A stretch of DNA of 57,147 nt, counting the filler, from Jimgerdemannia flammicorona (taxonomy: Eukaryota): assembly GCA_003990765.1 (NCBI GenBank). It is 3 parts of 3 records of this genome, joined end to end, with 100 filler letters (N's around TTAATTAATTAA, not from the genome) between each part and the next. Parts side by side here need not be neighbours in the genome. Positions count along the whole stretch, not along the records: positions 1 to 18,991 come from RBNJ01002056.1; 2 more parts are not named here. One strand, 5' to 3'. The position numbers and the translations under genes are program-made. Below, one piece after another: positions 2,590-41,300 of the stretch (the stretch's first letter is position 1; each line of letters begins with the position of its first letter). The notes under the pieces were generated by a model. That model was not told where the DNA came from, ran no database searches, and was given only the letters and a program-made list of their open reading frames with translations.

Positions 2590-2990
2590 AAGCAAATCGA
2601 TATAGGACCATTTTTAAAAAAATTGAAGACAACCCGACTACCCAGGATTCAAATCCTTCAAACATTGTACATTAAATTGCATGCACTCAGTTTTAATATA
2701 TTCGCTTCAATAAACAAAAAAGAAATTGATGCTTAGAACCATTTTAATAATTGAAGATAACCTCAAAATGATTCAAATCCTTTAAAAATATAAATTCCTT
2801 CAAAAAATAATTTTAATGTGTTCAGGTCTATCATATTCACTTCAATAAATAAAAACAATTCAATATTACTTAGGACCATTTTAAGTATTGAATATGACTT
2901 TACCTGCTCAAGATTCAAATCCTTTCAAACTACAATCATCAAATTGCATGCATTCAGTTTTAATACATTTGCTTCAATAAATAAATCGTA
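2590..2990. repeat. Three degenerate AT-rich tandem units of about 135 bp
   Basis: The blocks tagRaccatttt, gattcaaatcctt and cttcaataaa recur in units starting near 2602, 2733 and 2870. Confidence 0.7.
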
Positions 2991-3260
2991 TATTGGAGTA
3001 GGGAGATATAAATATACAATTATTGAAATCAGCTTGTATGTACTTGGGCACATATCTGCTTGAATAAAATAACGATAATAACTATGCCTTTCTTCAGGAG
3101 AACAAGAGATCCATAAAATAATAACATGAGAACTTGCAATCATTTTAGTCAAGCAATTAAACGCATTCGAGTTATTGAGAAAGAGTTTCCTGGAGCACTA
3201 GAGTGTGTTACTTCTGCCCTAAAATCTGGCCGTTCCGCCAACTGGCCCACCGGCCTCATT

Positions 3261-5592
3261 TTACAGGATGTCCTCCCTGCGGATGGCCAAGATGAGCGAA
3301 ACGGGCACAATCTGTGCCGACATGAACTTGAGGTGTCCAAAATGCTCAAAGACCTCTTCGTGGTAGTTGCAAATGACCCGCTTCCAGTACGTGCCCAGCT
3401 TGTCGCCGTTTCGGCAATACCACCCCCCGATTGGCTGGCTGGTGCAAAGGTTTAAAAAGTGAAGAAAGACGTATTGGTCGATGAGAGGAACGACTGAAAG
3501 GACACACAAACATTGGCAAATAAAATCAAGGAATGACTCATCTGCCGGCTGTTACGACCAAAAACCTCTGATCCGCGCGCCATAAATCTTCCAGTAGTGT
3601 ACTGGCTGTTAGCCACCGGAACCAAGGGCGCCAATTCCACCAGGTACGTTGTATAGTACTCTCCAAATTCTGACGTGTTCACTTTGTCGAGTTTCAAGCC
3701 TTTTCACTCACGTACCCATCCAGGACTTTCTCCAACTTCGGTGCCTCGGGTTCCCCTTCCTTTTCCATCCTCAACTGAACCGCTGCCAGCTGCAGCAGGT
3801 TACTGATAGCCAAGTCGCTCGCCATAATGAGCCAGAACAGCATTCGATTTCGAGAACCCTTGCGGCTGTAGTGAATATTCGGTGGAAATTACAGCCGCTA
3901 ACTGGGCTCACCACCTTGAGTTACCGGGGCTCATAACCTTGTAGTGGAAATTACAGCCGCTAACTGGGCTCACCACCTTGAGTTACCCGGGGCTCATAAC
4001 CTTTATAGTAACGACTGATGAATGACGTAAAACTGATGAAATCGCGTAATGTCACGTGCTGACATATCGAGTTGCCATCCCAACAGCGGCGATCTCATCG
4101 CGAAAGTGGTCCGCGACGGACCGACCGGCGCTCGAAGGGCGACCGACAACGGCGCGCACACCTTGCTGAAGCGGTAGCGGACGTAGGCATTGTACACGTT
4201 CACCTGCGATAGGATGCTGCGCGTGGACGGATCCGTCGCGCGAGTTGCTCGCGTGTATACTTCCGCCCTTCCATTTGCCGTCTCACCGGAGTCGGAGTAG
4301 GCCGAAGATTACTTCGTTTGTGGGAGTTCATCGGCACGTGGATTCGGATCCGCGGAATCGTTGGCCTTGTTGACAATGCAAGAACCGCACTTGTCCGTGT
4401 TCAGGCGGAGTCTTAGGTACGGCAACACTGTCTGAAGCGTCTTCCACCCATTGGCGACCAAGCCCGTCTCCGGATGAAACAAGACCATGTCGTCAACAAC
4501 GCGAACCAGTACGACGTGATCCATTATGGGCGCGTGGCGTGTCGTGTGGCCGGTCACCGACTCTGATGTGAATATCCGCCACAAACAGCACGACCTCATT
4601 AAATATCATCGACAGCGCGTGGTGCAGCGGCAGCCCGCGGCGAAGCGTGCGAAGCTCACGCGCCGTTGTCGCACCGCGCTTGTCGGCCGTCGCGGGAAGA
4701 TAAACCTGCTGTGTCATCATGCGCGCGAAGAAGTTTATTCAGTCGATATCGACGCCGAGGACCTCCATAATATTGAGGGCGTGTTGTCCTGGATGTCGGC
4801 GACAACTACTGTCATTCCCTTGTTCCTCAGTTCGGTCCTCCTTACGCAGAAGGTACTCTGTCGCGCACAACGTGTCGATGGCGAACTTGAGCTCATCGAT
4901 AAATTTAACGACGCCGTCGTGCACATTAGAGAGTGTGCCCTTCTCGTTTTCGAGCAGGATCTTGTCGACAACGTCGAGGTTGTACTCGGAAGCGTCGTGC
5001 GGAACGGCGAGCCTTTGAAGGAAGTTTTGAAACGCGCGGCGCCCCTGCGCCTCTTCGGCAGTCAGATTGCCCGTGATGATGTCGGTGCGGGTTCCGCTCG
5101 GTCCGAGGTCAACTTCTTCGTCGCCGTACTTGGTTCGGAGGCCAACCATTCTCGCAAGATGCTACCGAACACAAAGCCTGCCAGAGTATTGGAATAATAT
5201 ATGATAATTTTAGACATTGAATAGATCGAAAGTAGGTAGATAGATCGACGAGTTGGACTGACGAACAGAACCTTGCGCCAACCTGCTGACCCTTTCAATT
5301 TTCTTTTCCAGCCGATCGATCCAACCCTGCAGTACCGTCGGACCGACGACCTTCGGCAAGAGTGTCGTCTCCGGGTTGCCAATGTTGGGATGGTGTCCGA
5401 CGAAATCCCTGATGTCCTGTAGAAGGTCTCAACTTTCAGCCGGAGATCGTCCTGCGCGGCGGCCCTGACCAGGATGTCCTTGTAATGTGTCTGTAACCTC
5501 TTCTGTCGCTTCGACAGCTCACTGAGCTTGGAATTCGTGACGGTCTGGAGAGTGGATACTGATGTTAGCGAGGCGGATCGTTTGCTAACCAT
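3261..5592 (-). pseudogene. rvt: rvt-type cellular reverse transcriptase-related gene, degenerate (frameshifts, stop codon, internal deletion)
   Basis: Colinear rvt-like blocks across frames: STLQTVTNSKLSELSKR (ATG 5592); FGSILREWL; ATEYLL..MTVVVADIQD; LGVDID*INFF; RRGLPLHHALSMIFNEVVLF; VRVVDDMVLF..GWKTL..LRLNTDKCGS; SILSQVNVYNAY; LFWLIMASDLAISN; C-terminal YWKRVICNYHEEVFEHFGHLKFMSAQIVPVSLI ending at 3261. Confidence 0.8.
3882..4003. repeat. Near-perfect tandem duplication (62-bp period) inside the rvt relic
   Basis: gtggaaattacagccgctaactgggctcaccaccttgagttacc(c)ggggctcataacctt occurs at 3882-3940 and 3944-4003. Confidence 0.95.
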
Positions 5593-6131
5593 TGTCGAGG
5601 TAGTTTGTGGAGCTGTTATGGATGTGGATGTGTGGATGTGTGTTGTTGGAGGGAGGCGGAATATTGTACTTATACACAAAAGGGAGTGGCGAAGGCTGGA
5701 ATGTCCGGTATCTCTGGCGTACGCGATTCTAGCCAAAGCTCTGTGTCAACATTACTATCCCTCAGGTATATTCTAATGTGAAGTGATGTGGCATGGTACC
5801 GTAGCTACTGGGTTATTAATTGACACACTTGTACAGCTCTTGTTCTGCCGCAGACAGTGATTCAGATTGTGCTGGATTGAAAACATTCATTTGCCTTCCC
5901 TTCATCATTAAGGAGCATTGTCTCTTCGTATGCGTTGCTCGGCTTCCCCCACGGCGCTCTTGGAGGTTTGGCATGGTGACAGCCTAAAGAATATACCCAT
6001 TTGCATGGACCGCCAGCCAACCTTAAACCCTTTTTACCACCGCCTCGTGCATCAGATCTGGAGTTTTATTCAACACATCTAGGGATGCATGACCCATTCT
6101 CCAACGACCGAGAATCTCACAGATCTCAGCA

Positions 6132-6144
6132 GATAAATTTTATG

Positions 6145-6216
<72 letters not shown>

Positions 6217-7338
6217 GGACTCAATGTTTCACGGATTTTTATTGGAAGAGAACCTAAACTATATAGGCCAAAACCCTCCCCCACCACCCATCAAGCACTG
6301 TCTCTTTATTAACTTAGGTTAGTTATTATTCAGCAGTTTGACCATGTTAGTTGCAGCAGAGCCTATGTTGGCCTGTATCTTATTTTGCACACTATGCTCT
6401 CTCTATCATCAGGGAAAACTCAGTTATATATCAATGATCAAAAGTGCATATTCAAGAACCCAATGTATATACAAGGCTATGTTTAAGCTGAATAGAATAA
6501 CCTCTGCCACTCCAAAGAGAATGATAGGTAAAGAAAAACTCTCATCAAAGTATAATACAGTGAGTAGGGCTTGGTTTTTCCAGTTGAGGTGAGTAAAGGA
6601 CTTATACATAAGGTGGGAGGAGACCTCCAATACCCTACTACTCAAGCCTATAGGCCTTGATTATATTGCTATATCAGCTCCTGGTTCTAGTTGAGTATAG
6701 TCAAGATACTTGAAATGGGTAGCCTTAGACCCCCTGACTCCCCCAGATGACCAGGGCCCAACCCTATGAATTACCAAAAGAAGCTGAGAGTGATACCTAC
6801 TATCTAACCATACAGCATCAATCAAAAGATCTCACTGAAGCAGTATCTGTCCCAGCCCCAATGACTGCCTCCAGCCTGGTATCCTACTGGTTCACCATTA
6901 TTGCCCTTCCTCCTATCTATGATGGCCATCTCCCCTCCCATCCCAACAATACCTGAAAAGTAGTCACCATACTAGAACTATACTCACTGGGAAGCTCACC
7001 AAAGCCAGAGAGCCCTACTACAGGTACTGAGGACCTACAAATAACCTATGCTGAGCACTTGATGCCCAAGGTCAGCCAACTCTCTATGTAGCCCGAGACA
7101 CACCAAGACAACACCTTGTTGGTGATGGCAAAAGGAAGAAGGCACTACATCAAAATAGATGCACTTCAGATATAGCTGAAGGTACTAGAAACTGCAAAAA
7201 AGTGGAGAAGACACCAATCTGATACTGATAAAGGAGCAACTCATCATCATTGCCCTCCTCTCACCATGCCCATGCAGGATAAATTTTATTTTTATTTTTA
7301 TTTTTATTTTTTTTATAGTGCAGGATAAATTTTATGTC
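6132..7338 (-). mobile_element. 5'-truncated poly(A)-tailed retro-insertion (probable LINE 3' fragment) with target-site duplication
   Basis: Long T tract at 6147-6213; minus-strand AATAAA at 6238-6243; gataaattttatgtc at both 6132-6146 and 7324-7338; CpG-poor body. The remnant ORF SLPIILFG..LNIALYIHWV resembles a LINE ORF2 C-terminus. Confidence 0.65.
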
Positions 7339-7391: not shown

Positions 7392-7447
<56 letters not shown>

Positions 7448-18991: not shown

Positions 18992-19091
18992 NNNNNNNNN
19001 NNNNNNNNNNNNNNNNNNNNNNNNNNNNNNNNNNNTTAATTAATTAANNNNNNNNNNNNNNNNNNNNNNNNNNNNNNNNNNNNNNNNNNNN
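18992..19091. other. Assembly gap with TTAATTAATTAA spacer
   Basis: N run with a central ttaattaattaa (stop codons in all six frames). Confidence 0.97.
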
Positions 19092-22000
19092 TTTTTTTTA
19101 TAGTCCCTTGGACTCTGTCTTTATTACCAGTCTATGAATAAGTATACAATATCACCACCCACTATCCGATCCCCATCGGGTGGCCCCACCCCACCTCATC
19201 ATGTATAAAGACTACCCTCTCACCAACAACTCCAACTCTCCCCCCACTCTGACCACACATTTTCACCACCAAGCAGTGCCTCCGACCCCCCTGCAGCCCC
19301 CAACCAAGCCACCAGCCTGTTAAGGTATCCTCCATAAGGAACTGCCACCTTACTAACTGGCTCCCCAAGCTCGCTCGCTTCTCCTTCTCAAATACAAATA
19401 GCCAGTGGCCAGCCAGCCCAACCCAAATAGCCAATGCCCAGCCTGGAGTAATCCACTCTTCCCCAACCCCTCCTATCAATTGATCCCTCAGGTCCTCCCA
19501 CCTCCCCCGTACATCATCACCCCTATGCCTTACCCCCAAGCAGTCCCCAATGGCCTGCCAAAAGTCTCCCAACACTTCACACTCCTCTAGCCAATGTTGT
19601 GGCATCTGTACCAATCCCCCTTCCTGCCTGACATTATGGCACTCCTCGCAGTCAAAGCAGCCCCCTACAACAAGGTGTCCTGAGCAGAAGTTAAGCATCA
19701 CATTCCTCCTTAGTATATGCCACCAGACTACCCAGTACTTTGGCAGCATCCAATTCTTCACTGCGGTACTCCAGGTCCAAACCCCATGCCAGTCCCACTC
19801 CTTACCAATTCCAACTCCTTGCCAACCACTAGGCCACAGATCCTGGCCTGGACCCCTTTGACATTCGATACCATCACTAATGTTGAACTCCAGTAAAGGC
19901 ATGCCTCCCAGAAGAATGCTATCCCATCTCCATATCACCGGGTCCCAAGCCCTCTCCCCCTCATCCTCTTGCCAGCAAATACCAATGCAGTGTGCCCCCT
20001 TGGCTCTCCCCCACCAGAAGCCTTTATATCTCAGTTGTGCAGTGTTCTGAAGCCCAACCAATGAAAGAAGATCACCAGTCAAGCCTCTAGGCGATGTCCA
20101 CCTCTCCCATATCTTCTGCAGTAGGGGGACCCAGCCCCCTCCATGCAACTCCACTGCCCTCCTCAGCCACCAAGCCCTCAAGCAGTGTAGTCGTTTGGAG
20201 AAGTCCACCAGCCCAAGAGCACCTCTCGCCACTGGTAGGGACAAAGTCTCCCAACCAATCTGACTCCATCTGTCAGCCCAAATCCATCTCTTGGCCACCT
20301 TCACCAATCTCTTCACTACCCAGGCTGGGAAGTCCAGATGATAGGCCAAATGCCACAGCTTCGGCAACCAGTATACATTCAAAATCAAGATCCTTCCTGC
20401 CAGAGAGAAGTGTCGACCCCTCCAATCCCGCAGGTCCTCCTCTCAAATTCCAATCCTCTGCTCCCACCACAGCCTGGGCAAAACAGACCCATAGACTGAC
20501 AAATAGATGTCCAAGTACCGCACTGCCTCTCCGGTGGGGACAATTGTTCCAATAACTTCTCTGCCCACCAAGCCATTGCCCAGCACCATTGTTTCGCACT
20601 TGTGCCAATTCAGCTTCACCCCAGAGTTCTCCTCATACCACTCCACTGTCTTCCGGAGCTCCTCGATATCTGCAGTCACTCCCAAACCAACCACCATGTC
20701 ATCTGCAAAGGCTCCAACCTTCCAGCCAATACCATAGATAGAGAGCCCCACAATCTTCCGCCGAATCCTGTCCATCAGAGGTTCCAAGGAAAGAGCATAC
20801 AAAATGGGGGACAGTGGGTCCCCCTGGGGCACTGCCCTACCCAGAGGGAAAGCCACCCCTCGATGCCCATTGCACATGAGCACAGCCCTACTCCTTTCCA
20901 GTAGGCTGACCATTGCTGACCAAAATGGGCCTGGAACTCCAATTCTATCTAATACTTTTGCCAGCCAGACTCGCCATACCCAGTCATAAGCCTTCTCCTG
21001 ATCCAAGAAGACAAGACACCCATCTAGTCCACAGGCTTGAGCACCTTCAATAACTCTATATACCCAGGCTGTGCCATCTCTAATAAGCCGACCTCCTATG
21101 AAGCCCCTCTGCTCAACACCCACAATTTGCTGAGCTACCTTCTGTAGCCTTGCGACCACCACCTTAGTCACCAACTTCCTGTCCATATCTAGCAACATTA
21201 TTGGCCACCAGTTCTTCCAATCCTCTCGCCTTCCCTTGTTCTTATAAAGCAGCATCACCAGCCCAAGGTCTTGCTCCCCCACCCATCTCCCTGACTGCAA
21301 TATAGAGTCACACAGTGCTGTCAACTCCCCCAATATGCCTGGGACTCCAACCATTCGCTTCCAGAAGTCCCAAGGGAGGCTATCCTCCCTAGGTGCCATA
21401 CCTGAGGCTGTCGCGGCAAGAACCTGGTGGATCTCTTCCTCCCTTACAGGCATCACCAGTTCACCTAGTCCCTAAGCTTGTGGTGGGTGCCAATCCTCTA
21501 ATGTTTGGTCAATGGCTGTAGCATCCACCCCACCCTCCTCCTCACTCCACAATCCACTCCATTGCACCTTCAGCGTTCCAAGGATGTTCTGTACACCATG
21601 CACTAGTACATCATCCAAGCCAAGTACCCCTTCCCACTGCTGCTGTATCCTTCTTGCTCAAAGTATCCTTGTGAGAAACTTGGAAGGCCTCTCCCCTTTA
21701 TCCAGCCCCTGCCAACGAAGCTGTGCCACCAGGCCTTGCACCTTTGACTCTTCCTCTTCCCACAGCACCTGTTGCAGTTCCCCAACCTCCATCTTCACCC
21801 TCGTCATTCTCCAATCCTCTTCTCCCTCCACTGCTGCCAGTCTCGCCCACTCCTCCAGGAGCCTAGCCAATCTAGTAGAAGCCCAATGCACTTTCTGCCT
21901 TCACTGCTTCCCAGCCACTCTGCCAGCCTCACTCCAATACATCCTGGCCATCTCTTTCAACCTCATCCACCGAACCCCAATCGCAGCCCCTTCCTGCTGC

Positions 22001-24930
22001 CAATTTGCCACCTCTAGCTGAATATCTTTCACCCACATCTCTCACCGGGCCTCATCATCCAACAAGGAGGAATTTAGGCACCAATGTCCAGACCCATCCC
22101 TACTTCCCCCAAAATACCCCTGTCCCAAGAGGCCCTAGTGATCTGACCACAGACACCATTCTACCTCTAACACCTTCCAAACATTGCAGCCCCAACAGTC
22201 GGCTGTCAGAATCCAGTCAATCCTTGTCCCTAGACCTCCAGCCCAATGCATATATACCCTCCTGTCCCCCCAGTGCTCCCTACCAGCATCCACCAGTGCT
22301 CCTAGCTGTTCAACCTCCTCCCATGTCGCCAACCCCCCACTCATGCTCTCCACACCCCATCCTCCATCAGTTCTATCCAGCTGTACATCCTGAACCATAT
22401 TGAAATCTCCTCCAAGCATATCCAACCCAGCTTCAGCAAGGATCCCACTCTCCAGGAGCCCTTTCACCCAATCCACATGCTCCCCCTGCACAGCAGGGCA
22501 GTAACAGGAGCCAATGGTGACCAGCTCCTACTCTGCATGAATCCACTCACCCCAGACCAGTCTCTCCCCCCAGCTCCTCACATCCTTTATCTCCCCTCTG
22601 CCTTTTCGAACCAGAATCCCAACCTTGCTGTTCCAAGTCGCCATACCACCCCATTCCTTAGTCCATTCCATCCTATCAGCATCATTCTTGTACCTGACAT
22701 CCTGTAAGAGGAAGAGATCAGCCTCCAATCCCTTCAACCAAGTAAAAATATTCCTGCATCGAACTGTGCCCCTCAGCCCATTCACGTTCAAAGAAAAAAT
22801 GTTAGTTATACTGTTCATAGTAAAATACGGTTTGTTCTCAATCAATCTCTACTGCTCCATGCCCCTCTCCTCCTACGCCGTGTCCAGATTATGTTCAGCC
22901 ATCACCTCCTCCTCTTCCACCCTCTGAGCCTCCAGTCCAGCCAACAGCTCATTCATCTCCTCATCAGTCTTCTCCTCAAACTCCTCTCGATACTTGATGC
23001 AAGCCTCCTGCCAAAGCTGCAACCCATGATGCCTGTTCCAACAGTACTCAGCCTTCTCCCCAGCAACCACCACCAACTCTACCTCCCTCTCCTTATCCAC
23101 CTCATACCCTTCCTCCTCCAGATATACCACGAGAATTTTCGCCTTTAGCGCCATCGCCACTCCTTCCCCCTGCAAAATTCTCATCCAGTGCTTGTCACCC
23201 ATCCCACACAAATCCACCTCCCCTAGCTCTTCTGCCACCAGGTTATTCATCATCCAGCATATCCAAAGTAGGTTCCCCACCTCCTTTCCACCAGGGGTTG
23301 CTGGCCTCCCTCCATCCAGCATTGTGGTGTCAGCTCCTGCACTCGCATCCTCATCCCATACCTCCGGGACATCCACCAGTTCCTCCTCCCCTGCCTCTAC
23401 TACTCAGTCCCCATCCAATACCTCTGGAATACTAAATTTTACCTGCTGGGTCCCCAGCATCATCACGTCCTCCCCAGACTTGTTCCTGGAAGCCAGGCCA
23501 TGCCTGATAAGAGGGGAAGGGGTGGGGGAGTTCTCCCAGACTTCATCCCAAACCTCCAAGGTGCCGTCAGCATATAGGTCGCTAATCTTCACCTCCTTAG
23601 CCTTCCCTGACTTTGCCCCCTTGTTCCCACTCCTCTCACCAGCCCAGACACTCGCTCCGGCCCCTTCTGCACCCATCTTCATGCTCGCATCCTTCTGTGG
23701 TCCACCCCCCAACTTAGCCAGCAGATCCTTCTGCCTCTTCTGCCCCTGAGCCCTTTCCCACTATACCTTGTCCACTTGAATCCTCTTTCCATCCACCACC
23801 TCCAGGAGTGTCGACTCCTTGAAAGTCTTCCAGGCCTTAGCTCGCCATTCCACAGCCCCATCCAGTTCCTCCAGCGCTTCCAATAAATCTTCCTCCTCTT
23901 CTTCACTTCCTTTCACCCATGTCACCTTGCACAGGAAAGCTCCCCAGACCAACACTGCAGGCCAGTCCCTTGTCTTCCTGGTAGCCTCTTTCCCAGCCAG
24001 CCGAATCCTCACATCCACATCCCCAGTCCTGAGTGTGGTCCCTTCCCAGACCCTGAATCTGATATCCACCACCTCTCCGTACTCCGCCATGACATCCTCC
24101 ACCCTCTTCCTCGTCTCCATCACCGTCACCATGGGTACACCTTTCACCAGCAGTTGGACCACCCTTGGATCCCATTTCAGACACCGCATCATTGGAACAC
24201 ATACCTCCCCCACCACCAACCCAACCTTCAGTGCCTCCTCCAGTGGTTTGACCTCCTCAAATCCCACCTCCACCCCCTCCAGTCCCTTCAGAAACTTTAC
24301 CGAAGCCGCTCCTGCCATCTGCTTAGCAATAAGCCCCAACACCATTTTTGCTATCACTGCTAAGCCCCGGAAGCACAGCGTGACTGCAAATGCCAAGATC
24401 GACTTCTTGAGTAATGGAGCCACCGCCAGTCCCGTTACACCATCTGCCAGGTCCCTGGGCCTCGTGCCCTTCCCACCGCTCAGCTCACCATCAGCAGTCC
24501 CATCTAGATTTTTTTCCAGATCACCCATCACACCCCCATCAGCAGTCTCCGCCCCAGCCACTACCCCCCCAGCTCCACTCCTATGGCCCTCTAGAGAGGT
24601 ACCCCCAAGAGGTTGCTGTCTGGAAGCCGCCACCGGTATCTTCCCCCCTCTCAGCCAGCTCTCCAGTCCAGCTCCCTGCCGACCCCCCTTCATCTTCTCC
24701 ACAAAGCTCACCCTGCCAGACCCTTGACCTCCAGCTCTGCCCTCTCCTCCACCATGGCCCCCCACCAGCAGGCCCCTCATGCTTCCCCCCAAGCTGGGGC
24801 CTCTCCCCACTTGTTGCCATTCAAATGCTCCAGGGCCACCCTGCCCAGTATGCACCTCCGGATGCTCGTTGGTCACCATGATACTAGTAGCTTTTCTCCA
24901 GAAACTGTGTCAAAAGTGTTGCCAAAGGGT
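19092..24930 (-). mobile_element. Near full-length L1/Tx1-clade LINE, disrupted (ORF1 about 24879-22873; ORF2 about 22818-19162)
   Basis: APE endonuclease motifs SLNVNGL, LLQD, GGDFN, RIDWI, SDH; RT motifs FLDQEKAYDWV, PQGDPLSP, FADD; LPVARGALGL; C-terminal CxxC..H. ORF1 has RRM-like YGEVVDI. T tract (poly(A) tail) abuts the gap. Confidence 0.93.
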
Positions 24931-24932
24931 TG

Positions 24933-26321
24933 TGTAACCTGAATGTTACCAGAGGGCCACACTCTTGATGCCCGCCATACTTATAATTAGCCAGGATACC
25001 AGACCAGGGTTATTTATCCATATTCTGAGGACACACCTGTGTCTGGTGGACACACTTATGTCTGGCAGACACACTCATGTCCTGCAGACACACTCATGTC
25101 CTGTGGACATATCTGTACCCAGAGGACACACCCAAACATTACCAGAAGTAGTAAATCTATAGTTAGCAACATAGTAACCAGATAGCAACCAACCTGTATA
25201 AATTACCCCAGAGACAAGAGTGAATAAACCTCAGTCTGAAATTGAATCCAAAAGTAAAAGATAAGTCTGCCTACCACACTTTGAGAGGAACTCTACAGCC
25301 ACTGTTAGGAGATTGTGAGCATTGGTCCCCTTTTCCACTCCAGTCCACTTTCCGATACAAAGCCTTGGTTTGCTTGCCAGATAAGCCTGAAGAGTCCAAG
25401 TTTGCCACCTAAGTTCAAGGAAGAACTTCACTAACTTTTGAAGAGAAACCTGCCGCTTAAGGAATAAGCCGCGCTATTGGTATGCTTGCCAGATAAGCCT
25501 GAAGAACCCAAGTTTCCGCCACCTAAGAGAAAGCTGCCAGTTTCTGACGCAACTTCACAGTGATCCGTCATGCAAACGAAGCCAGTCTTTAATGCAACTT
25601 TGCCAAGAGACCCTTTCCCAGTTAAAGCTGCCATTCCCAAGTTATCCGCATTCCCAGAAGCCCGCCGATTCAGAAAGAATCCGCGACGTCCGAGTTATCC
25701 AAGTTATCCAAGCTATCTGCGCCATCTGAGTTATCCAAGTTATCCAAGCTATCTGCGCCATCTGAGTTATCCAAGTTATCCAAGCTATCTGTGCCATCTG
25801 AGTTATCCAAGTTATCCAAGCTATCTGCGCCATCCGAGTTACTAGTTTGTTCCCAGTGAGCCCGATTCAGGAAGAATCTGCACCATCTGCCATTCCCAGA
25901 AGCATCCGCCGCCAGTATAATTCCCAGTGAACCCGCACCCAAATCGAGTCATCTGCCAAATCGCATAAGAAGTCCACCTGTGCTACACAGAGATCACCGC
26001 GCTACACAAGGAGATCGTCATGCAGAAATCGCATACTTTTGGAGATTGTCGCGCTACACACGAAATTCTACCAATTCCCAGTTGGCCCAAGAAGGAAACC
26101 CATTCACAAATTGCCGCTACACCCAGAGAACCGTCCTAATAAGGAAACCTGACGAAATCGACCATTGTATCCAGATTGACTATTATACCACTAAACACCA
26201 ACAAGGACCTTAGGAATCTTAGAACATTTTGTTGCTTTTTGACAAAGTAACTGGGGGCTCAAGCCAAACTACATCAACCCCCAACCTTGTAATTTGCCTC
26301 CATTGAGCCAGGCACGTTACA
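24933..26321 (+). mobile_element. LTR-like element (TGTAAC...GTTACA) related to the Gypsy 1 LTR, with internal repeats
   Basis: 6-bp inverted termini. agagtgaataaacctcagt, gattgtgagc and tgaagagaa..ctgc.gcttaaggaataag match the reverse complement of 12790-12965. No TSD found. Confidence 0.6.
25692..25841 (+). repeat. 36-bp minisatellite (4+ copies) built from 9-bp subunits
   Basis: gagttatccaagttatccaagctatctgcgccatct starts at 25692, 25728, 25764 and 25800. Confidence 0.95.
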
Positions 26322-35161: not shown

Positions 35162-36547
35162 TTACAATTCGGAAAGCAAAGCCACCAGATGCGGTGGCGG
35201 AACAGGCGGCCCTCCGCGCTGCTCAATATTTCCACCCACATGCTGCAGCGGAACCGACGACGATCCGTGCCTCTCAATGTCCCATTCTTCGTTATTGGTG
35301 CCCTCAGGTCTCGCCCCGCCACGGTGCTCTGGGTCAGAGAATTCGTCGTCGATCGCCCACCCGGCGAAATCCTTATCCTCGTTCCCGGGCTTGTCCTCTC
35401 CCAGGCTTCGGATATTGTCCTTTAACCCTTTGCCAAAGTTGCGCATCACCACGACGGTGTACCCAATGTTGAGGAACGAGTCGATAACGCCGCAGACCAT
35501 CAGGACCCCCCAGGTTACGGACATATTGTTGACGCTGAAAATCAGCCCAAAGTTGACCGCAATCCCGACATTCAAAAAAATGTAAGCAATGAGCGGCCAT
35601 CGCATCTCCCGCCGCGCCGCGGTCCCAATCGTTGCGAACGCCAGCAGGTTCAATGCCGTGATCACTATGTGGAATATGGATTGACCCAAGCTGATGCCCG
35701 CGAAATTCGACTGCACGAGAATGCCCAAGAATACCGCCTCAAAGCGTATTTGGAACAAGGGCGACAGTTTCAGAAATACGAGGAAGAACTGGTACTGTCG
35801 GTACATTGTCTGTGTCGTCAGGTCGGCTCCGATGCGACGGTAGATGTTCCACCCGAACTGCTGGTACAGCTTCCACACGACGAACGCCGACGCGCCCGCG
35901 AAGGCCAACCCGAAGGCAAACTCCACCGTCGCGTAGTTTCGCTGGTATACGAGATGGTATACAGGCAAATAAATCCCGTATGCCTCGCGGAAGTAGTCCA
36001 AGTTCCGGTACCACAGCACCGCGTCGTAAAACTGCGACAACGTGAACGCCAGACAGAGTACCTGCACGGCGAGGTAGGCAAAAAGCTGGATGGAGTTTTG
36101 ATGCAGGATGGCGTCGACGGCGAAGATGAACATCATGAAAACGAAGACGATGAAGAAGATGGTGTGCAGCGCCCGCGTCTGGAAGTTCAACCCGGCTCGG
36201 GCTAGTGGGTCGTCGCCGGCGCTGATTATGTGCGAGGCGTTGATGGTCGCGAGCCACGATGCTTCCCCGAAAGTATCGTTGTCCATGATGCGGATGGCCT
36301 CGAACTCTAACACGTTGTCGCAGTAGATGGCCATTTCTAGCCCGCACGTCAAGAGCAAGTAAAGGAGCGCGAGGAGCGGGAGTGCAATGGTCCAGCGAGA
36401 TTCTGTGAGCCGCGACCTGGATACGCGGAGGAAGTTGACGGCGCGCAGTTCGGGAGGTGTGGCGGTGGTGGGAGGGGGAGTAGCCATGGTAATGGGGGTA
36501 TAGTGAACAGCACTGGGAGTGGTAGGTGCCGCAGCAGGGTGGAACAT
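35162..36547 (-). CDS. Multi-pass membrane protein, UPF0658 Golgi membrane protein-like
   Basis: 461-aa ORF with several hydrophobic segments and the family-like motifs DAILHQNSIQL, WKLYQQFGWNIYRRIGADL..MYRQYQFFLVFLKL and NFGKGLK. Confidence 0.8.
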   Translation of the reverse strand: MFHPAAAPTTPSAVHYTPITMATPPPTTATPPELRAVNFLRVSRSRLTESRWTIALPLLALLYLLLTCGLEMAIYCDNVLEFEAIRIMDNDTFGEASWLATINASHIISAGDDPLARAGLNFQTRALHTIFFIVFVFMMFIFAVDAILHQNSIQLFAYLAVQVLCLAFTLSQFYDAVLWYRNLDYFREAYGIYLPVYHLVYQRNYATVEFAFGLAFAGASAFVVWKLYQQFGWNIYRRIGADLTTQTMYRQYQFFLVFLKLSPLFQIRFEAVFLGILVQSNFAGISLGQSIFHIVITALNLLAFATIGTAARREMRWPLIAYIFLNVGIAVNFGLIFSVNNMSVTWGVLMVCGVIDSFLNIGYTVVVMRNFGKGLKDNIRSLGEDKPGNEDKDFAGWAIDDEFSDPEHRGGARPEGTNNEEWDIERHGSSSVPLQHVGGNIEQRGGPPVPPPHLVALLSEL

Positions 36548-36765
36548 GGGATGCAGAACTCTTCAGAGAGAGGGGGGCCACGAGGGGATTTAAGTGTACG
36601 ATTTTCCGACGCTAGTCTGCCTCAGATGGGCGGACTAACCTCCAGGCCCGTGTTACCTGATAAGGATGGCGATATGTCCGTTAAAGGAGGGTAGACGGGT
36701 GTTTGCCGAATATTAACATTCGTGGCTGTCGGTTTATTTTGGTGTAACTGGATTCTATTTTCCCT

Positions 36766-38071: not shown

Positions 38072-38171
38072 NNNNNNNNNNNNNNNNNNNNNNNNNNNNN
38101 NNNNNNNNNNNNNNNTTAATTAATTAANNNNNNNNNNNNNNNNNNNNNNNNNNNNNNNNNNNNNNNNNNNN
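38072..38171. other. Assembly gap with TTAATTAATTAA spacer
   Basis: Same N-run and spacer as 18992-19091. Confidence 0.97.
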
Positions 38172-38369: not shown

Positions 38370-41300
38370 ATAACTATAATATAGTGGTTTTCTGATAGTA
38401 TTACTGGTAGTGGCCCAATGATATCAATTGTGATGTGGTGGAAGGGGATAGGCTCAATTCTTAATGACCTGGATGCCTGGTCTTATTGATCTTGTTTCTG
38501 TTTTTGGTACTTGTTATACCCTTTGACAAATTGGCACAGGTCTTCTTCCATCTTGGGCCACCACATGGTTCTTCTTGCCTTGTCATATATATTAGTTCCT
38601 CCTAAGTATTCTTGCTTGTGTACTTTCTTCATTACTTGATACTTCTTGTATTCAGGTATTATTAGCTTTCCTTCTTTTCTGAGTATAGTGTTGTCTAGTT
38701 CAAACTGTTTCTAAGTCCAGTTGATGATGGTAATTGTCCAGGGTTTGAGGTGGTTGGGCATCTTCTGCTGCCCAAGATAGTTGATTAATCCATAGTATAG
38801 CTCCTTATTCATATTGAATGGTCTTGTTGGGGGTGTTTCGGGGTATTCTTGAGAGTACATCAGCATTGGTATTGGTTCTTCCTAAGTGGTACTTGATAGT
38901 ACAGTTATACTCTTGCAGCCTGTAGATCTATCTGGCATATATTTCTTTGGGGTTCAGAGTGTAAAATAGCCAGGCAAGGGCAGAATGGTCTGTTTGAATA
39001 GTGAAGTATTTTCCAGCTAGGTAGTAGTGGAACTTGTCTACTGCCCAGACTACTGCTAAGCATTTAAGCTTGTATGACTCATAGTTCTGTTCTGCTCCAC
39101 AGATACCTTGGCTTACATAGGAGATGACATATTCATGTCCATCTTTCTTCTGAGCTAGAACTGCTCCAAGTCCTATAACACTCACATCTGTCTGCAGGAT
39201 GAATTCTAGGTTCCAATCTGGTCTTCTGAGGATAGATACTTGGGTCAACCTGATCTTGAGTTCATTGAAGATTTCTTGGCACTCCTTGGTCCATTCAAAT
39301 TTGGTTTCCTTCTTCAGTAGCTCATAGATGGGTGCTGCAATATTGGAGTATCCTTTTATGAACCTTCTGTAGTAGCTGGCCAGTCCAAGGAAGGCGTGGA
39401 CTTCTGTAGTTGTTCTGGGTCTTGGGTAGGCTGCAACAGCCTCAATCTTCATAGGGTCTGTGTGGATTCCAGTCTGGTTGATGAGATATCCTAGGTAGGC
39501 AATTTCCTGGGCTACAAACTTGCATTTCTTGGGCTTGATGTAGAGGTCATACTCCTTGAGCTTCTTGAGGACTAGCTGTATATGATTGATATATTCCTGT
39601 ACAGTATTGCTGAAGATGATCACATCATCAATATAGATAAAGAGCCATTTTCTAATCTCATTGCTGAAGACTCTATTCATTATTCACTGGAAACTTGCTG
39701 GGGTATTGCATATTCCAAATGGTATTTGCAGGTAGATATAGATAGTATTAGGTATGATAAAGGCTGATTTCTCACTGGCATCTTGAGTGAGATCAATCTG
39801 ATAGAAGTCTGAGAACAGATCCAAGGTGGTGTAGTATTTGGCTTTACTTCCAAGAATAGTAAGAATTTGGTAAGAACTGCCTATTCTTCTTGGTGATGGC
39901 ATTGAGCTTTCTGTAGTCAATACAGAGTCTTGGTGCAAACTCTCCAGGCTTGCTTCCTTTCTTCAGGACAAGGACAATGGGTGAGGCCCAGGAGCTGATA
40001 GCTTGCTTGATAATTCTGGCTTCTTCTATTTCCTTGAGTTCTGCTCACAGCCATTCTCTATAGGCAGGTGGTATGGGTCTGGCTTTTTGGTAGATGGGCT
40101 TGGTATCACCAGTGTTAACTTCATAGTAGTACTTGGGTTCTTGATTGTAGATATCCTGGAAGTTTGTAGCAAGTACTTCTTTATTCTGATGCAGGATCTT
40201 GAGAAGTTATTCCTCTAGGGGAAAGTTTTCTCCAATAGTGTATGTGTGCTTGTTCTGGTCCTTGTTTTTCTTGTACTCAAGTTCAGTAATCTTGGTGGTA
40301 GTATAGGCTCCTCTTCCAGTAGATCCAAAGCCTTATTCTCCTCTCTTGGTTTTGATGAGTTTAATGGCTTCTATGATCTTAGGTTTCTTGATTTCATAGA
40401 TTAGCATCTGACTAATCCTGTTATACTTCTTGACTTCAAATAGGGTGGTGGGGTTGTGATTCCTGACTATGAGAAAGATCTCACCAGTGTAATCAGGGTC
40501 AATTACTCCTTCTTTAACTGAGATTTTACTTTTGGCCAGACTGCTTCTGGTCTTGATAATTCCAGCATGGTTCTCTGGCAGCTTGACTCCAATTCCAGTG
40601 CCAAGTAGGGTGGTGGTCTGTGGTTTGAGAGTAGCATCTTGAATGCTGGCAAGGTCTATTCCTATGACTCCTTTAGTCTTGTATTCTAGGATCTTGGCTT
40701 TGGGGTGAAACTTTTTGATCTTGAGAGTGATGTTTGATTCTTGTTCCTCCTCATCATCACTGTCAGTCTGAAGCTCTGGGGGCTGGTCATCTTCTTTAGC
40801 TTTCCTTTTTGCTTCAGCAGCTTCTTGCTTATGTTTCTGTTGGCAGATTTTCCTGACTTCACTGATACAGAACCAGCAGTCATTCAGGTATTCAGAGCAG
40901 TACATCCTAGTACCATAGAGGCATCTTCCTTGAGGAGCATACTCATCAATGATCTTGTTATACCACTACTCATCTGTGAGCTTAGATGTCTTATTCTTGT
41001 TCTTGTTCACCAAGTGTATGAAGACCTCTGTGTTCTCTTCATCTTCTTCCTCTATATCTGGTAAGACTCCTTTGTGAACATTGATAGAGACTTATATCTT
41101 TCTTCCTCTATAGTTGATCTGCATTTTCTGGGCATTGAGGTCAATGATGGCCTTGGCCTTGTAAAGCCATTGGTTGCCAATGAGGATGTTATAGTTGGTG
41201 GCACTTGTAACAATCACATCTACTAGAATGATAGCTCCTCCTATCTTGATGGAGACTTCTTGGATTTTACCAAGGGGGGTAGCTCATGTACTATCTGCTG

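What the first reader, a model, noticed from the sequence alone, without database searches (positions are those of the whole stretch)
3261..5592. Hidden rvt-type cellular reverse transcriptase gene with an atypical VVDD active site
Seen: short minus-strand ORF pieces that look like noise individually line up in order as one protein. They give an N-terminal coiled coil (TLQTVTNSKLSELSK), LREWL, a first catalytic Asp (VVVADIQD), RRGLPLHHALS..EVVLF, RVVDD, LNTDKCGS and a C-terminal YWK..Y..E..EHFG.L. The locus is CpG-rich like host genes, has a probable intron (~5270-5200) and has no LTR, endonuclease or poly(A). Known: rvt genes are non-mobile cellular RTs with patchy distribution and template-independent polymerase activity; their role is unresolved. 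From memory, ascomycete rvt usually has xHDD. Inference: this is a divergent rvt lineage in an early-diverging fungus. This copy is broken by frameshifts, a W>stop and a large deletion between AIDTL and ATEYLL, and an intact paralog or ortholog may exist.
Basis: partly seen in the sequence, partly recalled or inferred. Interest (0 to 1): 0.8.

Follow-up and report, generated by a model that had tools for sequence, protein, structure and literature searches.

The report
Dead rvt reverse-transcriptase gene relic
This is the broken remnant of a fungal rvt gene, a known kind of non-mobile cellular reverse-transcriptase-like gene, so it is an ordinary pseudogene whose "odd" VVDD active site is in fact normal for its family.

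Summary
Minus-strand ORF pieces from 5592 to 3261 line up colinearly with full-length (about 800-900 aa) rvt proteins. Each informative piece matches the PADLOC model RT_UG37 best, and Mestre et al. 2022 equate UG37 with rvt. The nearest relatives are two Jimgerdemannia flammicorona gene fragments (Endogonales), then chytrid genes.

The copy is dead. It has seven frameshifts that no intron explains, two in-frame TGA stops, and a loss of about 200 codons between the N-terminal domain and RT motif A. It also carries a repeat insertion with a 62-bp tandem duplication, and the invariant WPITAGGL motif reads WLIMASDL. Contigs of an independent run match the window letter for letter over the intervals holding all the frameshifts, stops and the deletion junction, so these are not assembly errors. 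A second, slightly diverged run shares them and has extra 10-nt deletions.

RVVDD is not atypical: 25 of 27 family rows have V, I or L before DD, and HDD occurs in 2.

The only splice seen (5232-5311, GT..AG) lies on the opposite strand. CpG content matches host genes, not the window's CpG-depleted transposons. Verdict: a new, decayed member of a known family; modest interest.

The parts
5416..5592 (-). Start codon (5592-5590) and N-terminal domain remnant. This is the region described as a coiled coil in rvt proteins.
   Evidence: Family HMM positions 31-106, E 1.7e-8. tblastn to Jimgerdemannia P0003 residues 36-212, 2e-18. P0003 matches RT_UG37 positions 5-100.
5420..5430 (-). Frameshift 1. 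It reads as a 1-nt loss between ..KVETFY and DIRDFVGHHP.
   Evidence: Reading of the frames against P0003. An X1 contig is identical here.
5270..5392 (-). N-terminal segment 2 (..PTVLQGWIDRLEKKIERVSRLAQG).
   Evidence: tblastn to P0003 residues 100-152; HMM positions 119-155.
5173..5269 (-). Putative ancestral sense intron 1 (97 nt, GTTCTG..GGCAG). Removing it joins LAQ-G-FVFGSILREWL in frame. The Jimgerdemannia gene model reads through an insert at the same position.
   Evidence: Inference. It is not removed in the run contigs.
5232..5311 (+). 80-nt intron of a transcript on the opposite (+) strand: GTAGGT donor, two CTGAC branch-like sites, a T-rich tract and CAG.
   Evidence: Skipped, with GT..AG ends, by one contig in X1 and one in X2. 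Sequence read. That the runs are RNA is the tool's guess.
4892..5172 (-). LREWL segment and the following helical region (..RRAFQNFLQRLAVPHDASEYNLDVVDKIL..AIDTLCATEYLL). Frameshift 2 lies somewhere between 5140 and 5060.
   Evidence: HMM positions 165-188 and 183-235. P0003 residues 216-313 and P0005 residues 149-192.
4813..4835 (-). Deletion junction. Family HMM positions 236-453 (about 200 codons) are replaced by 62 nt, with a frame change. The lost part holds the region upstream of motif A, including the variable segment taken to be loop 2a.
   Evidence: Jimgerdemannia P0003 residues 314-375 still hold part of this region.
4786..4809 (-). RT motif A remnant VVVADIQD (catalytic Asp codon 4797-4795). 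Frameshift 3 follows at about 4785.
4739..4741 (-). In-frame TGA where relatives have W (DWLAFF / KWLSFF).
   Evidence: An X1 contig is identical here.
4562..4732 (-). Motif B segment (..LRTLRRGLPLHHALSMIFNEVVLFVADIHIR). Frameshift 4, read as a 2-nt loss, lies at about 4566.
   Evidence: HMM positions 494-539, E 9.8e-9. RT_UG37 positions 404-467, E 4.6e-5. 59% identity to P0002.
4315..4539 (-). Motif C (RVVDD, 4503-4489) and motif D (LRLNTDKCGS) segment. Frameshift 5 lies at about 4317.
   Evidence: HMM positions 540-602, E 8.6e-13. RT_UG37 positions 470-528, E 2.5e-7. Pfam RVT_1, E 0.017.
4283..4285 (-). Second in-frame TGA (LLRLR*DGKW). Jimgerdemannia has R at this position.
4135..4260 (-). 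Post-palm segment (..RSILSQVNVYNAYVRY..). Frameshift 6 lies at about 4261.
   Evidence: HMM positions 626-665, E 1.2e-5. P0002 residues 180-201.
4014..4087 (.). Dispersed repeat inserted in the gene. Run contigs break here.
   Evidence: Depth 240-800 against 10-33 beside it, with many loose ends on both sides in X1, X2 and X3. There is no second copy in the window.
3882..4005 (.). 62-bp tandem duplication (two copies, 98% alike) inside the coding region.
3736..3840 (-). C-terminal domain remnant. The family's WPITAGGL (invariant in the 7-row alignment A1) reads WLIMASDL (3834-3811).
   Evidence: HMM positions 717-752. Motif table. Replacements P>L, T>M, G>S, G>D.
3536..3679 (-). C-terminal segment (..FGEYY..RFMARGSEVFGRNSRQ). 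Frameshift 7 lies at about 3700.
   Evidence: HMM positions 761-810, E 1.4e-4.
3435..3541 (-). Putative ancestral sense intron 2 (107 nt, ATGAGT..CCAG). The donor may be a decayed GTGAGT. Removing it restores the frame into PIGGWYCRNGDKLGTYWK.
   Evidence: Inference. It is not removed in the X1 contig covering 3200-3957.
3261..3407 (-). C-terminal end (LGTYWKRVICNYHEEVFEHFGHLKFMSAQIVPVSLILAIRREDIL) and TAA stop (3263-3261).
   Evidence: HMM positions 806-851, E 2.3e-12. RT_UG37 positions 730-770, E 3.4e-6. tblastn to P0007, 2.4e-10.

Best explanation
The locus 5592-3261 (minus strand) is the decaying remnant of a single-copy rvt gene, the class of non-mobile, reverse-transcriptase-related cellular genes that prokaryote classifications call UG37. 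The host is a fungus related to Endogonales (Mucoromycota).

The ancestral gene encoded a protein of about 850-900 aa. It had an N-terminal multimerisation (coiled-coil) domain, an RT fingers/palm with a long variable segment before motif A, and a helical C-terminal domain with the WPITAGG and YW.W..YG motifs.

From the literature, not tested here: such proteins multimerise, prime on protein, and polymerise nucleotides without a template. [quoted passage not shown]

This copy cannot make that protein. It has seven frameshifts, two premature TGA stops, a deletion of about 200 codons upstream of motif A, a repeat insertion plus a 62-bp duplication, and replaced invariant residues. The decay predates the split between the two sequenced strains or close relatives. 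What is still expressed from the locus appears to be an RNA spliced on the opposite strand.

Shown: homology, colinearity, the lesions, and their presence in independent contigs. Inferred: the ancestral introns, the taxon, the biochemical role, and that the runs are RNA.
For: 1. An all-against-all HMMER search with the read-through of 4496-5161 (TGA read as X) gave 4 proteins at E <= 0.001 out of 1.84 billion. Three are family members:
- P0002 and P0003, from Jimgerdemannia flammicorona (3e-14 and 5e-9);
- P0005, from Gonapodya prolifera (894 aa).
The fourth, P0004, is a repetitive protein matched over 41 residues, and I set it aside.

2. tblastn and a 27-row family HMM place 13 pieces in strict colinear order from HMM position 31 to 851.

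3. PADLOC RT_UG37 scores: P0005 3e-123; the Herpetosiphon aurantiacus ORF 1234 bits (E reported as 0); P0007 2.5e-80; P0016 1e-93. Four window pieces score 4.6e-5, 2.5e-7, 0.049 and 3.4e-6, in colinear order, and RT_UG37 is the top model in each. 'UG37 corresponds to rvt elements' (PMC9226505, passage read).

4. In the careful tree, window + Jimgerdemannia has support 100/99, inside a 7-row clade of the named eukaryote rows plus P0017 (unnamed ENA protein) (100/99) that is separate from 22 bacterial rows.

5. X1 contigs show 0 differences and 0 gaps over 3200-3957, 4112-5231 and 5312-5614. These intervals hold all seven frameshifts, both stops and the deletion junction. X2 shares them and adds 10-nt deletions at 3782 and 4473.

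6. Of 63 family columns that are at least 90% conserved, the window keeps 37, replaces 11 and lacks 15.

7. CpG observed/expected is 1.22, like host genes (1.17, 1.16) and unlike the LINE (0.20) and gypsy (0.01) elements. There are no flanking repeats and no extra domains.
Against: - Whether a second, intact copy exists in this genome could not be tested, because no genome is held. 'Single copy' is therefore shown only for this 57-kb window.
- Several family-HMM pieces are individually weak (E 0.05-4). They count only because they are colinear.
- The catalytic Asp codons of motifs A and C are still intact, and the locus is covered by contigs of runs guessed to be RNA. Some transcript-level role therefore cannot be excluded.
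- The link between UG37 and Herpetosiphon RVT, and the Neurospora biochemistry, rests on passages of secondary papers and on recall. The defining paper (PMC3251080) is not held.
- The bacterial rows were fished with a WPITAG pattern, which biases the motif counts.
- X1 may be the sample the window was assembled from, so it may not be fully independent.
Confidence: 0.9

Rival explanations
1. The gene is functional. The apparent lesions are assembly indel errors, unrecognised introns, or programmed recoding.
For: The start codon, the stop codon and all three catalytic Asp codons are preserved. The locus is covered by contigs of two runs guessed to be RNA. Two frame changes are explained by plausible introns (5269-5173 and 3541-3435).
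Against: X1 contigs reproduce the window letter for letter over the stretches they cover. X2 adds two 10-nt deletions, which are not multiples of three.

Frameshifts 1 and 4 fall inside stretches aligned residue by residue to Jimgerdemannia, with no room for an intron.

About 200 conserved codons are missing, with only 62 nt in their place. WPITAGGL is replaced at 4 of its 8 positions. Other genes in the window have long clean exons, for example nitrite reductase with 354, 230 and 222 aa.
Confidence: 0.03
2. It is the remnant of a retrotransposon RT (LINE, Penelope-like, group II intron) and not of a cellular rvt gene.
For: The window does carry retroelements: a LINE-type RT at 20446-21471 and a gypsy RT/RNase H at 38931-39683. 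The RT palm gives weak generic RVT_1 and DRT hits.
Against: RT_UG37 is the best model for each informative piece.

Homology extends through the rvt-specific N-terminal and C-terminal domains, which lie outside the RT palm.

Family queries do not hit the window's LINE or gypsy at E <= 0.01. There is no endonuclease domain, LTR, target-site duplication or 3' poly(A). CpG observed/expected is 1.22, against 0.20 and 0.01 for the transposons.
Confidence: 0.02
3. The relic has been taken over as a non-coding RNA gene. A spliced transcript from the + strand, antisense to the old rvt frame, is the present product. It may act on an intact rvt paralogue or have an unrelated role.
For: One contig in X1 and one in X2 skip 5232-5311, with GT..AG on the + strand. 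The skipped stretch has a textbook fungal intron layout. The X1 contig is 1948 nt long and runs beyond 5614.
Against: That the runs are RNA is a guess by the tool. The same skip could be an 80-bp deletion polymorphism. Contigs carry no strand or abundance information.

The 223-aa + strand ORF has no Pfam match and is the kind of open frame often seen opposite GC-rich coding DNA. No function is implied by transcription alone.
Confidence: 0.1

Closest known systems
rvt genes (RT-related cellular genes of Gladyshev and Arkhipova 2011; UG37 in Mestre et al. 2022), e.g. the Herpetosiphon aurantiacus DSM 785 ORF at L015:2977-5337
   Same: Same domain order along the full length: N-terminal domain, motifs A-D, then a C-terminal domain with WPITAGG and YW.W..YG..FGSF. 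RT_UG37 is the best model. The locus is non-mobile in context and looks like a host gene by CpG content.
   Different: This copy is a pseudogene: seven frameshifts, two stops, a deletion of about 200 codons and an insertion. rvt genes are described as evolving under purifying selection (PMC10680173, passage read). The region that should hold loop 2a is deleted.
Jimgerdemannia flammicorona RUS12704.1 (P0002, 254 aa) and RUS24566.1 (P0003, 429 aa)
   Same: These are the closest relatives: 59% identity over motif B, 41% over motifs C-D, and 36% over the N-terminal half. They share RVVDD, the same start (MV..) and probably the same first intron position. They are sister to the window in the tree, with support 100/99.
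   Different: The Jimgerdemannia pieces show no frameshift or stop over the aligned parts. They keep residues 314-375, which the window has lost. They are fragmentary gene models on short contigs of 1.2-4.9 kb, so whether the gene is intact was not established.
Gonapodya prolifera M427DRAFT_155281 (P0005, 894 aa) and Nowakowskiella sp. HK098_000124 (P0007, 985 aa)
   Same: Full-length intact members of the same eukaryote clade, with motif C RVVDD.
   Different: 25-45% identity to the window pieces; intact. Gonapodya also has a second paralogue (P0016) with RQHDD.
Telomerase RT and LINE/R2 RTs
   Same: They share only the RT palm. The profile of A1 matches about 130 residues of group II intron, retron, R2 and TERT chains at E 6e-11 to 2e-4. 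The protein atlas lists TERT clusters at score 0.91-0.93, below the rvt-like clusters at 0.96-0.98.
   Different: P0005 has no Telomerase_RBD, endonuclease or RNase H domain. The N- and C-terminal domains are unrelated.

Membership tests
rvt (UG37) RT-related cellular genes | Best and colinear match to an rvt-specific profile over the whole protein, not only the RT palm | tested here: met
   RT_UG37 is the top model for four window pieces, at model positions 404-467, 470-528, 554-585 and 730-770. The N-terminus is linked through P0003 (RT_UG37 positions 5-100; tblastn 2e-18). The 27-row family HMM is matched in order from position 31 to 851. UG37 = rvt per the PMC9226505 passage.
rvt (UG37) RT-related cellular genes | RT palm motifs A, B, C and D, with catalytic aspartates | tested here: met
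   VVVADIQD, RRGLPLHHALS..EVVLF, RVVDD and LNTDKCGS fall on the family columns. The Asp codons are retained, although the frame around them is broken.
rvt (UG37) RT-related cellular genes | [quoted passage not shown] | tested here: inconclusive
   A homologous N-terminal region is present (HMM positions 31-106, E 1.7e-8). The coiled-coil conformation was not tested, because the structure job had not finished.
rvt (UG37) RT-related cellular genes | [quoted passage not shown] | tested here: inconclusive
   Intact relatives have a variable segment of about 60-150 residues between the invariant G299/R301/W302 and E390 of P0005. In the window this whole region (HMM positions 236-453) is deleted, so the feature cannot be seen in this copy.
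rvt (UG37) RT-related cellular genes | Single copy; not part of a retrotransposon or virus | tested here: met
   Tested within the window only. There is no second hit. There is no LTR, target-site duplication or inverted repeat. There is no endonuclease, RNase H or integrase domain. CpG observed/expected is 1.22, like host genes, against 0.20 and 0.01 for the transposons. Genome-wide copy number could not be tested.
rvt (UG37) RT-related cellular genes | Open reading frame kept under purifying selection (PMC10680173 passage) | tested here: not met
   Seven frameshifts, two stops, a deletion of about 200 codons and an insertion. 26 of 63 conserved columns are lost. The locus is therefore filed as a relic of a member, not as a working member.
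rvt (UG37) RT-related cellular genes | Occurs in both bacteria and eukaryotes, with patchy distribution | tested here: met
   This is a property of the family. There are 25 bacterial loci, from Chloroflexota, Planctomycetota, Myxococcota and Armatimonadota. Eukaryote members come from chytrids, Endogonales and the amoebozoan Vermistella.
non-LTR (LINE) / Penelope-like retrotransposon RT | Endonuclease domain, 3' poly(A) or repeats, target-site duplication, multiple copies | tested here: not met
   The T runs at about 6147-6213 and 7395-7447 lie upstream of the gene's 5' end, not at its 3' end.
telomerase RT | Telomerase RNA-binding domain (TRBD) N-terminal of the RT | tested here: not met
   Pfam finds only RVT_1 in P0005. 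Only the palm matches TERT chains (E 1.5e-4 to 2e-4).

The most novel reading that the evidence does not exclude
The dead rvt locus is kept as a gene for a spliced antisense RNA that regulates, or is a by-product of silencing, an intact rvt paralogue elsewhere in the genome. This would be a first hint of RNA-level control of this enigmatic stress-linked polymerase. A weaker variant: this relic catches in the act the lineage-specific loss that produces rvt's patchy distribution, in a plant-associated Endogonales-like fungus.
Probability: 0.07. Interest if true: 0.5.

Novelty: new member of a known kind. Interest (0 to 1): 0.25.

Why it matters
[quoted passage not shown] Their distribution is patchy and their cellular role is unresolved.

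This locus adds three small points:
- An Endogonales-type lineage is documented, with a copy caught in decay. That is direct evidence that loss contributes to the patchiness.
- The residue before the catalytic DD is variable (V/I/L or H) even between paralogues of one chytrid. VVDD therefore marks neither a special chemistry nor a deep lineage.
- CpG content cleanly separates this host-derived RT relic from true retroelements in the same window, which is a useful annotation criterion.

It does not open a new mechanism.

Tried and rejected
- **Word-index protein search.** Searching with the motif C piece against longer proteins found nothing. The word index is too insensitive for this, and the full HMMER scan was needed.
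- **Window pieces against Pfam and NCBIfam.** Only weak generic RT hits.
- **Whole genome.** Not held, so no search for an intact paralogue was possible.
- **Defining rvt paper.** Not held under its DOI or PMC id. I read passages of PMC3520738, PMC5718144, PMC9226505, PMC10680173 and PMC8381367 only.
- **Supplement of PMC9226505.** It gave only accession labels for UG37 and no Herpetosiphon entry (the file was cut when stored).
- **PMC8934634.** It uses 'RVT' only for the Pfam domain and says nothing on rvt genes.
- **Metagenome scans.** P0002 alone gave 142 pattern matches and no relative. Alignment A3 gave one locus, L026. It matches only 39 residues of P0002 and none of the 8 other family queries, so I rejected it.
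- **My frameshift-aware dynamic-programming alignment to P0005.** It reproduced the lesions from 4813 to 4261 but wandered into wrong frames in the C-terminal third (9 stops). Only its RT part is used.
- **X2 joints.** The joint 3450/3541 (depth 4.9, side 29, TT..CA) and the joint 3871/3915 are not used as splice evidence.
- **RNA evidence.** No RNA holder is listed. X1 and X2 are 'RNA?' by guess only. X3 (soil metagenome) covers only small parts.
- **Rfam.** No match in 3100-6300.
- **Inverted repeats.** None around the insertion.
- **Structure prediction of P0005 with A1.** There is therefore no fold or coiled-coil test and no fold search.
- **Earlier findings of this scan.** Nothing by place, by words or by sequence.
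- **RIP-like mutation as the cause of decay.** Considered because 7 of the 11 replaced conserved residues fit single C>T or G>A changes (my reading of the codons). Not claimed, because the locus keeps 54% GC and CpG observed/expected of 1.22.
Full report
**What is there.** The minus strand between 5592 and 3261 carries a string of short open pieces in alternating frames. Taken alone, the pieces give almost nothing in Pfam or NCBIfam. The piece with RVVDD reaches RVT_1 at E 0.017 and Drt5 at 0.015. A word-index search found no relative.

I read 4496-5161 through its one TGA as X and scored it with HMMER against 1.84 billion representative proteins. This gave 4 hits at E <= 0.001:
- P0002 (3e-14, 59% identity);
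- P0003 (5e-9);
- P0005 (1.4e-4);
- P0004, a repetitive protein matched over 41 residues, which I set aside.

P0002 and P0003 are fragmentary gene models of Jimgerdemannia flammicorona (Endogonales). P0005 is a full-length 894-aa protein of the chytrid-grade fungus Gonapodya prolifera.

**Colinearity.** tblastn with nine family proteins hits only this locus in the 57-kb window, and the hits are in order:
- P0003 residues 36-313 on 5610-4826;
- P0005 residues 149-192 on 5041-4910;
- P0005 residues 424-487 on 4777-4565;
- P0005 residues 494-623 on 4518-4150;
- P0005 residues 848-889 on 3398-3273.

I built a family HMM from 27 rows. Nine are proteins. Eighteen are bacterial ORFs, kept from the 25 loci because each held an ORF over 700 aa; the other 7 loci were dropped. 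Searched against all stop-to-stop pieces of the three minus frames, this HMM places 13 pieces in strict order from HMM position 31 to 851. The best are at E 8.6e-13, 2.3e-12, 9.8e-9 and 1.7e-8. Several others are weak (E 0.05-4) and count only through colinearity.

**Which family.** The PADLOC model RT_UG37 scores as follows:
- P0005: 3e-123 (residues 10-717 on model positions 9-674);
- P0007 (Nowakowskiella): 2.5e-80;
- P0016 (a second Gonapodya paralogue): 1e-93;
- the 786-aa ORF of Herpetosiphon aurantiacus DSM 785 (L015:2977-5337): 1234 bits over model positions 1-774.

The window pieces themselves hit RT_UG37 at 4.6e-5, 2.5e-7, 0.049 and 3.4e-6. The hits are in order along the model, and RT_UG37 is the top family each time.

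Mestre et al. 2022 state that 'UG37 corresponds to rvt elements'. [quoted passage not shown] Arkhipova 2017 adds the big loop 2a between RT motifs 2 and 3, and the presence in both bacteria and eukaryotes (PMC5718144, passages).

The defining paper is not held. A meeting report gives the Neurospora data: the gene is non-essential, it is induced when translation is blocked, and the protein has terminal-transferase activity (PMC3520738, passage). Another reports a role under amino-acid starvation or antibiotics, non-templated polymerisation and purifying selection (PMC10680173, passage).

No solved structure of the family turned up by sequence. Only about 130 palm residues match group II intron, retron, R2 and TERT chains.

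**Place in the family.** In a careful IQ-TREE run (29 rows, 838 columns), the window's read-through (X at each break) is sister to the Jimgerdemannia fragment with support 100/99. Both sit inside a 7-row clade of the named eukaryote rows (Gonapodya twice, Nowakowskiella, the amoebozoan Vermistella) plus P0017, an unnamed ENA protein, with support 100/99. This clade is separate from 22 bacterial rows (the quick tree agrees). P0017 and L010 have long branches, and the root is arbitrary. No Dikarya, animal or plant RVT was available.

**The 'atypical VVDD'.** In the 27 family rows, the residue before DD is V in 20, I in 4, L in 1 and H in 2.
- Exactly RVVDD occurs in 3 rows (Gonapodya a, Vermistella, Nowakowskiella), and also in Jimgerdemannia P0002 and in the window.
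- Herpetosiphon has RFVDD.
However, P0016 pairs with the VVDD paralogue of the same species (support 82/96).

The position is therefore simply variable. One caveat: the bacterial loci were fished with a WPITAG pattern, so the counts are not an unbiased census.

**The lesions.** The frame order of the pieces, a frameshift-aware alignment to P0005 (reliable from 4813 to 4261 only) and residue-level reading against Jimgerdemannia give:
- seven frame changes that no intron explains, at about 5425, between 5140 and 5060, and at about 4785, 4566, 4317, 4261 and 3700;
- a junction at about 4835-4813 where HMM positions 236-453 (about 200 codons) are replaced by 62 nt;
- a TGA at 4741-4739 where relatives have W;
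- a TGA at 4285-4283 where Jimgerdemannia has R;
- extra DNA between 4135 and 3840, made of a dispersed repeat (4014-4087) and a 62-bp tandem duplication (3882-4005);
- WPITAGGL (invariant in the 7-row alignment A1) reading WLIMASDL at 3834-3811.

Of 63 columns at least 90% conserved in the family, 37 are kept, 11 replaced and 15 absent. A few of the 'absent' ones come from my choice of segments.

Two further frame changes fit ancestral introns:
- 5269-5173 (97 nt). The Jimgerdemannia model reads through an insert at the same place.
- 3541-3435 (107 nt, donor now ATGAGT).
Both introns are inferences.

**Not an assembly artefact.** Contigs of run X1 match the window with 0 differences and 0 gaps over 3200-3957, 4112-5231 and 5312-5614. 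These intervals hold all seven frameshifts, both stops and the deletion junction. Run X2 differs by 8 base substitutions and shares the lesions. It adds 10-nt deletions at 3782 and 4473 and a 1-nt deletion at 3221. The gene was therefore already dead before these two strains or close relatives diverged, and it is drifting. X1 may be the sample behind the window. No contig bridges 3958-4111, because of the repeat.

**Expression.** Both X1 and X2 are listed as 'RNA?' by guess only. In each, one contig skips 5232-5311, with GT..AG ends on the + strand. The skipped 80 nt reads GTAGGT...CTGAC...CTGAC...TTTTCTTTTCCAG, a canonical fungal intron on the strand opposite to the rvt frame. The inferred sense introns are not removed in these contigs.

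I read this as a spliced antisense transcript, with about 85% confidence that it is splicing and not an 80-bp deletion polymorphism. Its longest ATG ORF (223 aa, 4526-5197) has no Pfam match.

**Host-gene character.** CpG observed/expected is 1.22 in the locus. It is 1.17 in the nitrite reductase gene and 1.16 in the ORF at 35162-36562. It is 0.20 in the LINE-type element and 0.01 in the gypsy element (domains). There are no flanking repeats, no other domains and no RNA family.

**Verdict.** Novelty: a new (dead) member of a known kind. Interest is modest.

Noticed in passing
window 5232-5311 (+), contig span 4112 to beyond 5614: Contigs of two runs skip an 80-nt stretch that has a canonical intron layout on the + strand, antisense to the rvt relic. 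This suggests a spliced antisense transcript. Its 223-aa ORF (4526-5197) has no Pfam match.
   Followed up: partly
window 4014-4087 and 3882-4005: A 70-odd-nt dispersed repeat lies next to a 62-bp tandem duplication inside the pseudogene. The repeat has depth 240-800 against 10-33 beside it, with many different flanks in three runs. It has no inverted repeats, no Rfam match and no second copy in the window.
   Followed up: partly
window 19162-22527 and 38928-44223 against the genes: The two retroelements are extremely CpG-depleted (observed/expected 0.20 and 0.01), while the genes sit near 1.2. This points to repeat-targeted cytosine methylation and deamination, or a RIP-like process, in this early-diverging fungus.
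   Followed up: no
window 19001-25000: Strong, sustained GC skew (-0.32 to -0.50 per kb on the + strand) across the LINE-type element and its surroundings. Many overlapping open frames lie on both strands.
   Followed up: no
window 40336-40965 (-): The gypsy-type element carries a dUTPase domain (Pfam E 1.7e-22) upstream of its RT/RNase H.
   Followed up: no
window about 6147-6213 and 7395-7447: Two T runs of about 50-65 nt lie on the + strand upstream of the relic's 5' end. Each is preceded by a similar ATAAATTTTATGT motif. They may be tails of short retroposed elements on the minus strand.
   Followed up: no
window 2646-2985: AT-rich repeats of about 132-135 bp (three copies, 61-82% alike) lie just downstream of the relic's 3' end.
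   Followed up: no
proteins P0005 and P0016 (Gonapodya prolifera): Gonapodya has two rvt paralogues, recorded on contigs of the same length (394051 nt), so possibly on the same contig. One has RVVDD and the other RQHDD.
   Followed up: partly
window 18992-19091 and 38072-38171: Four runs of 44 N flank the starts of the two retroelement regions (masked or gap stretches).
   Followed up: no
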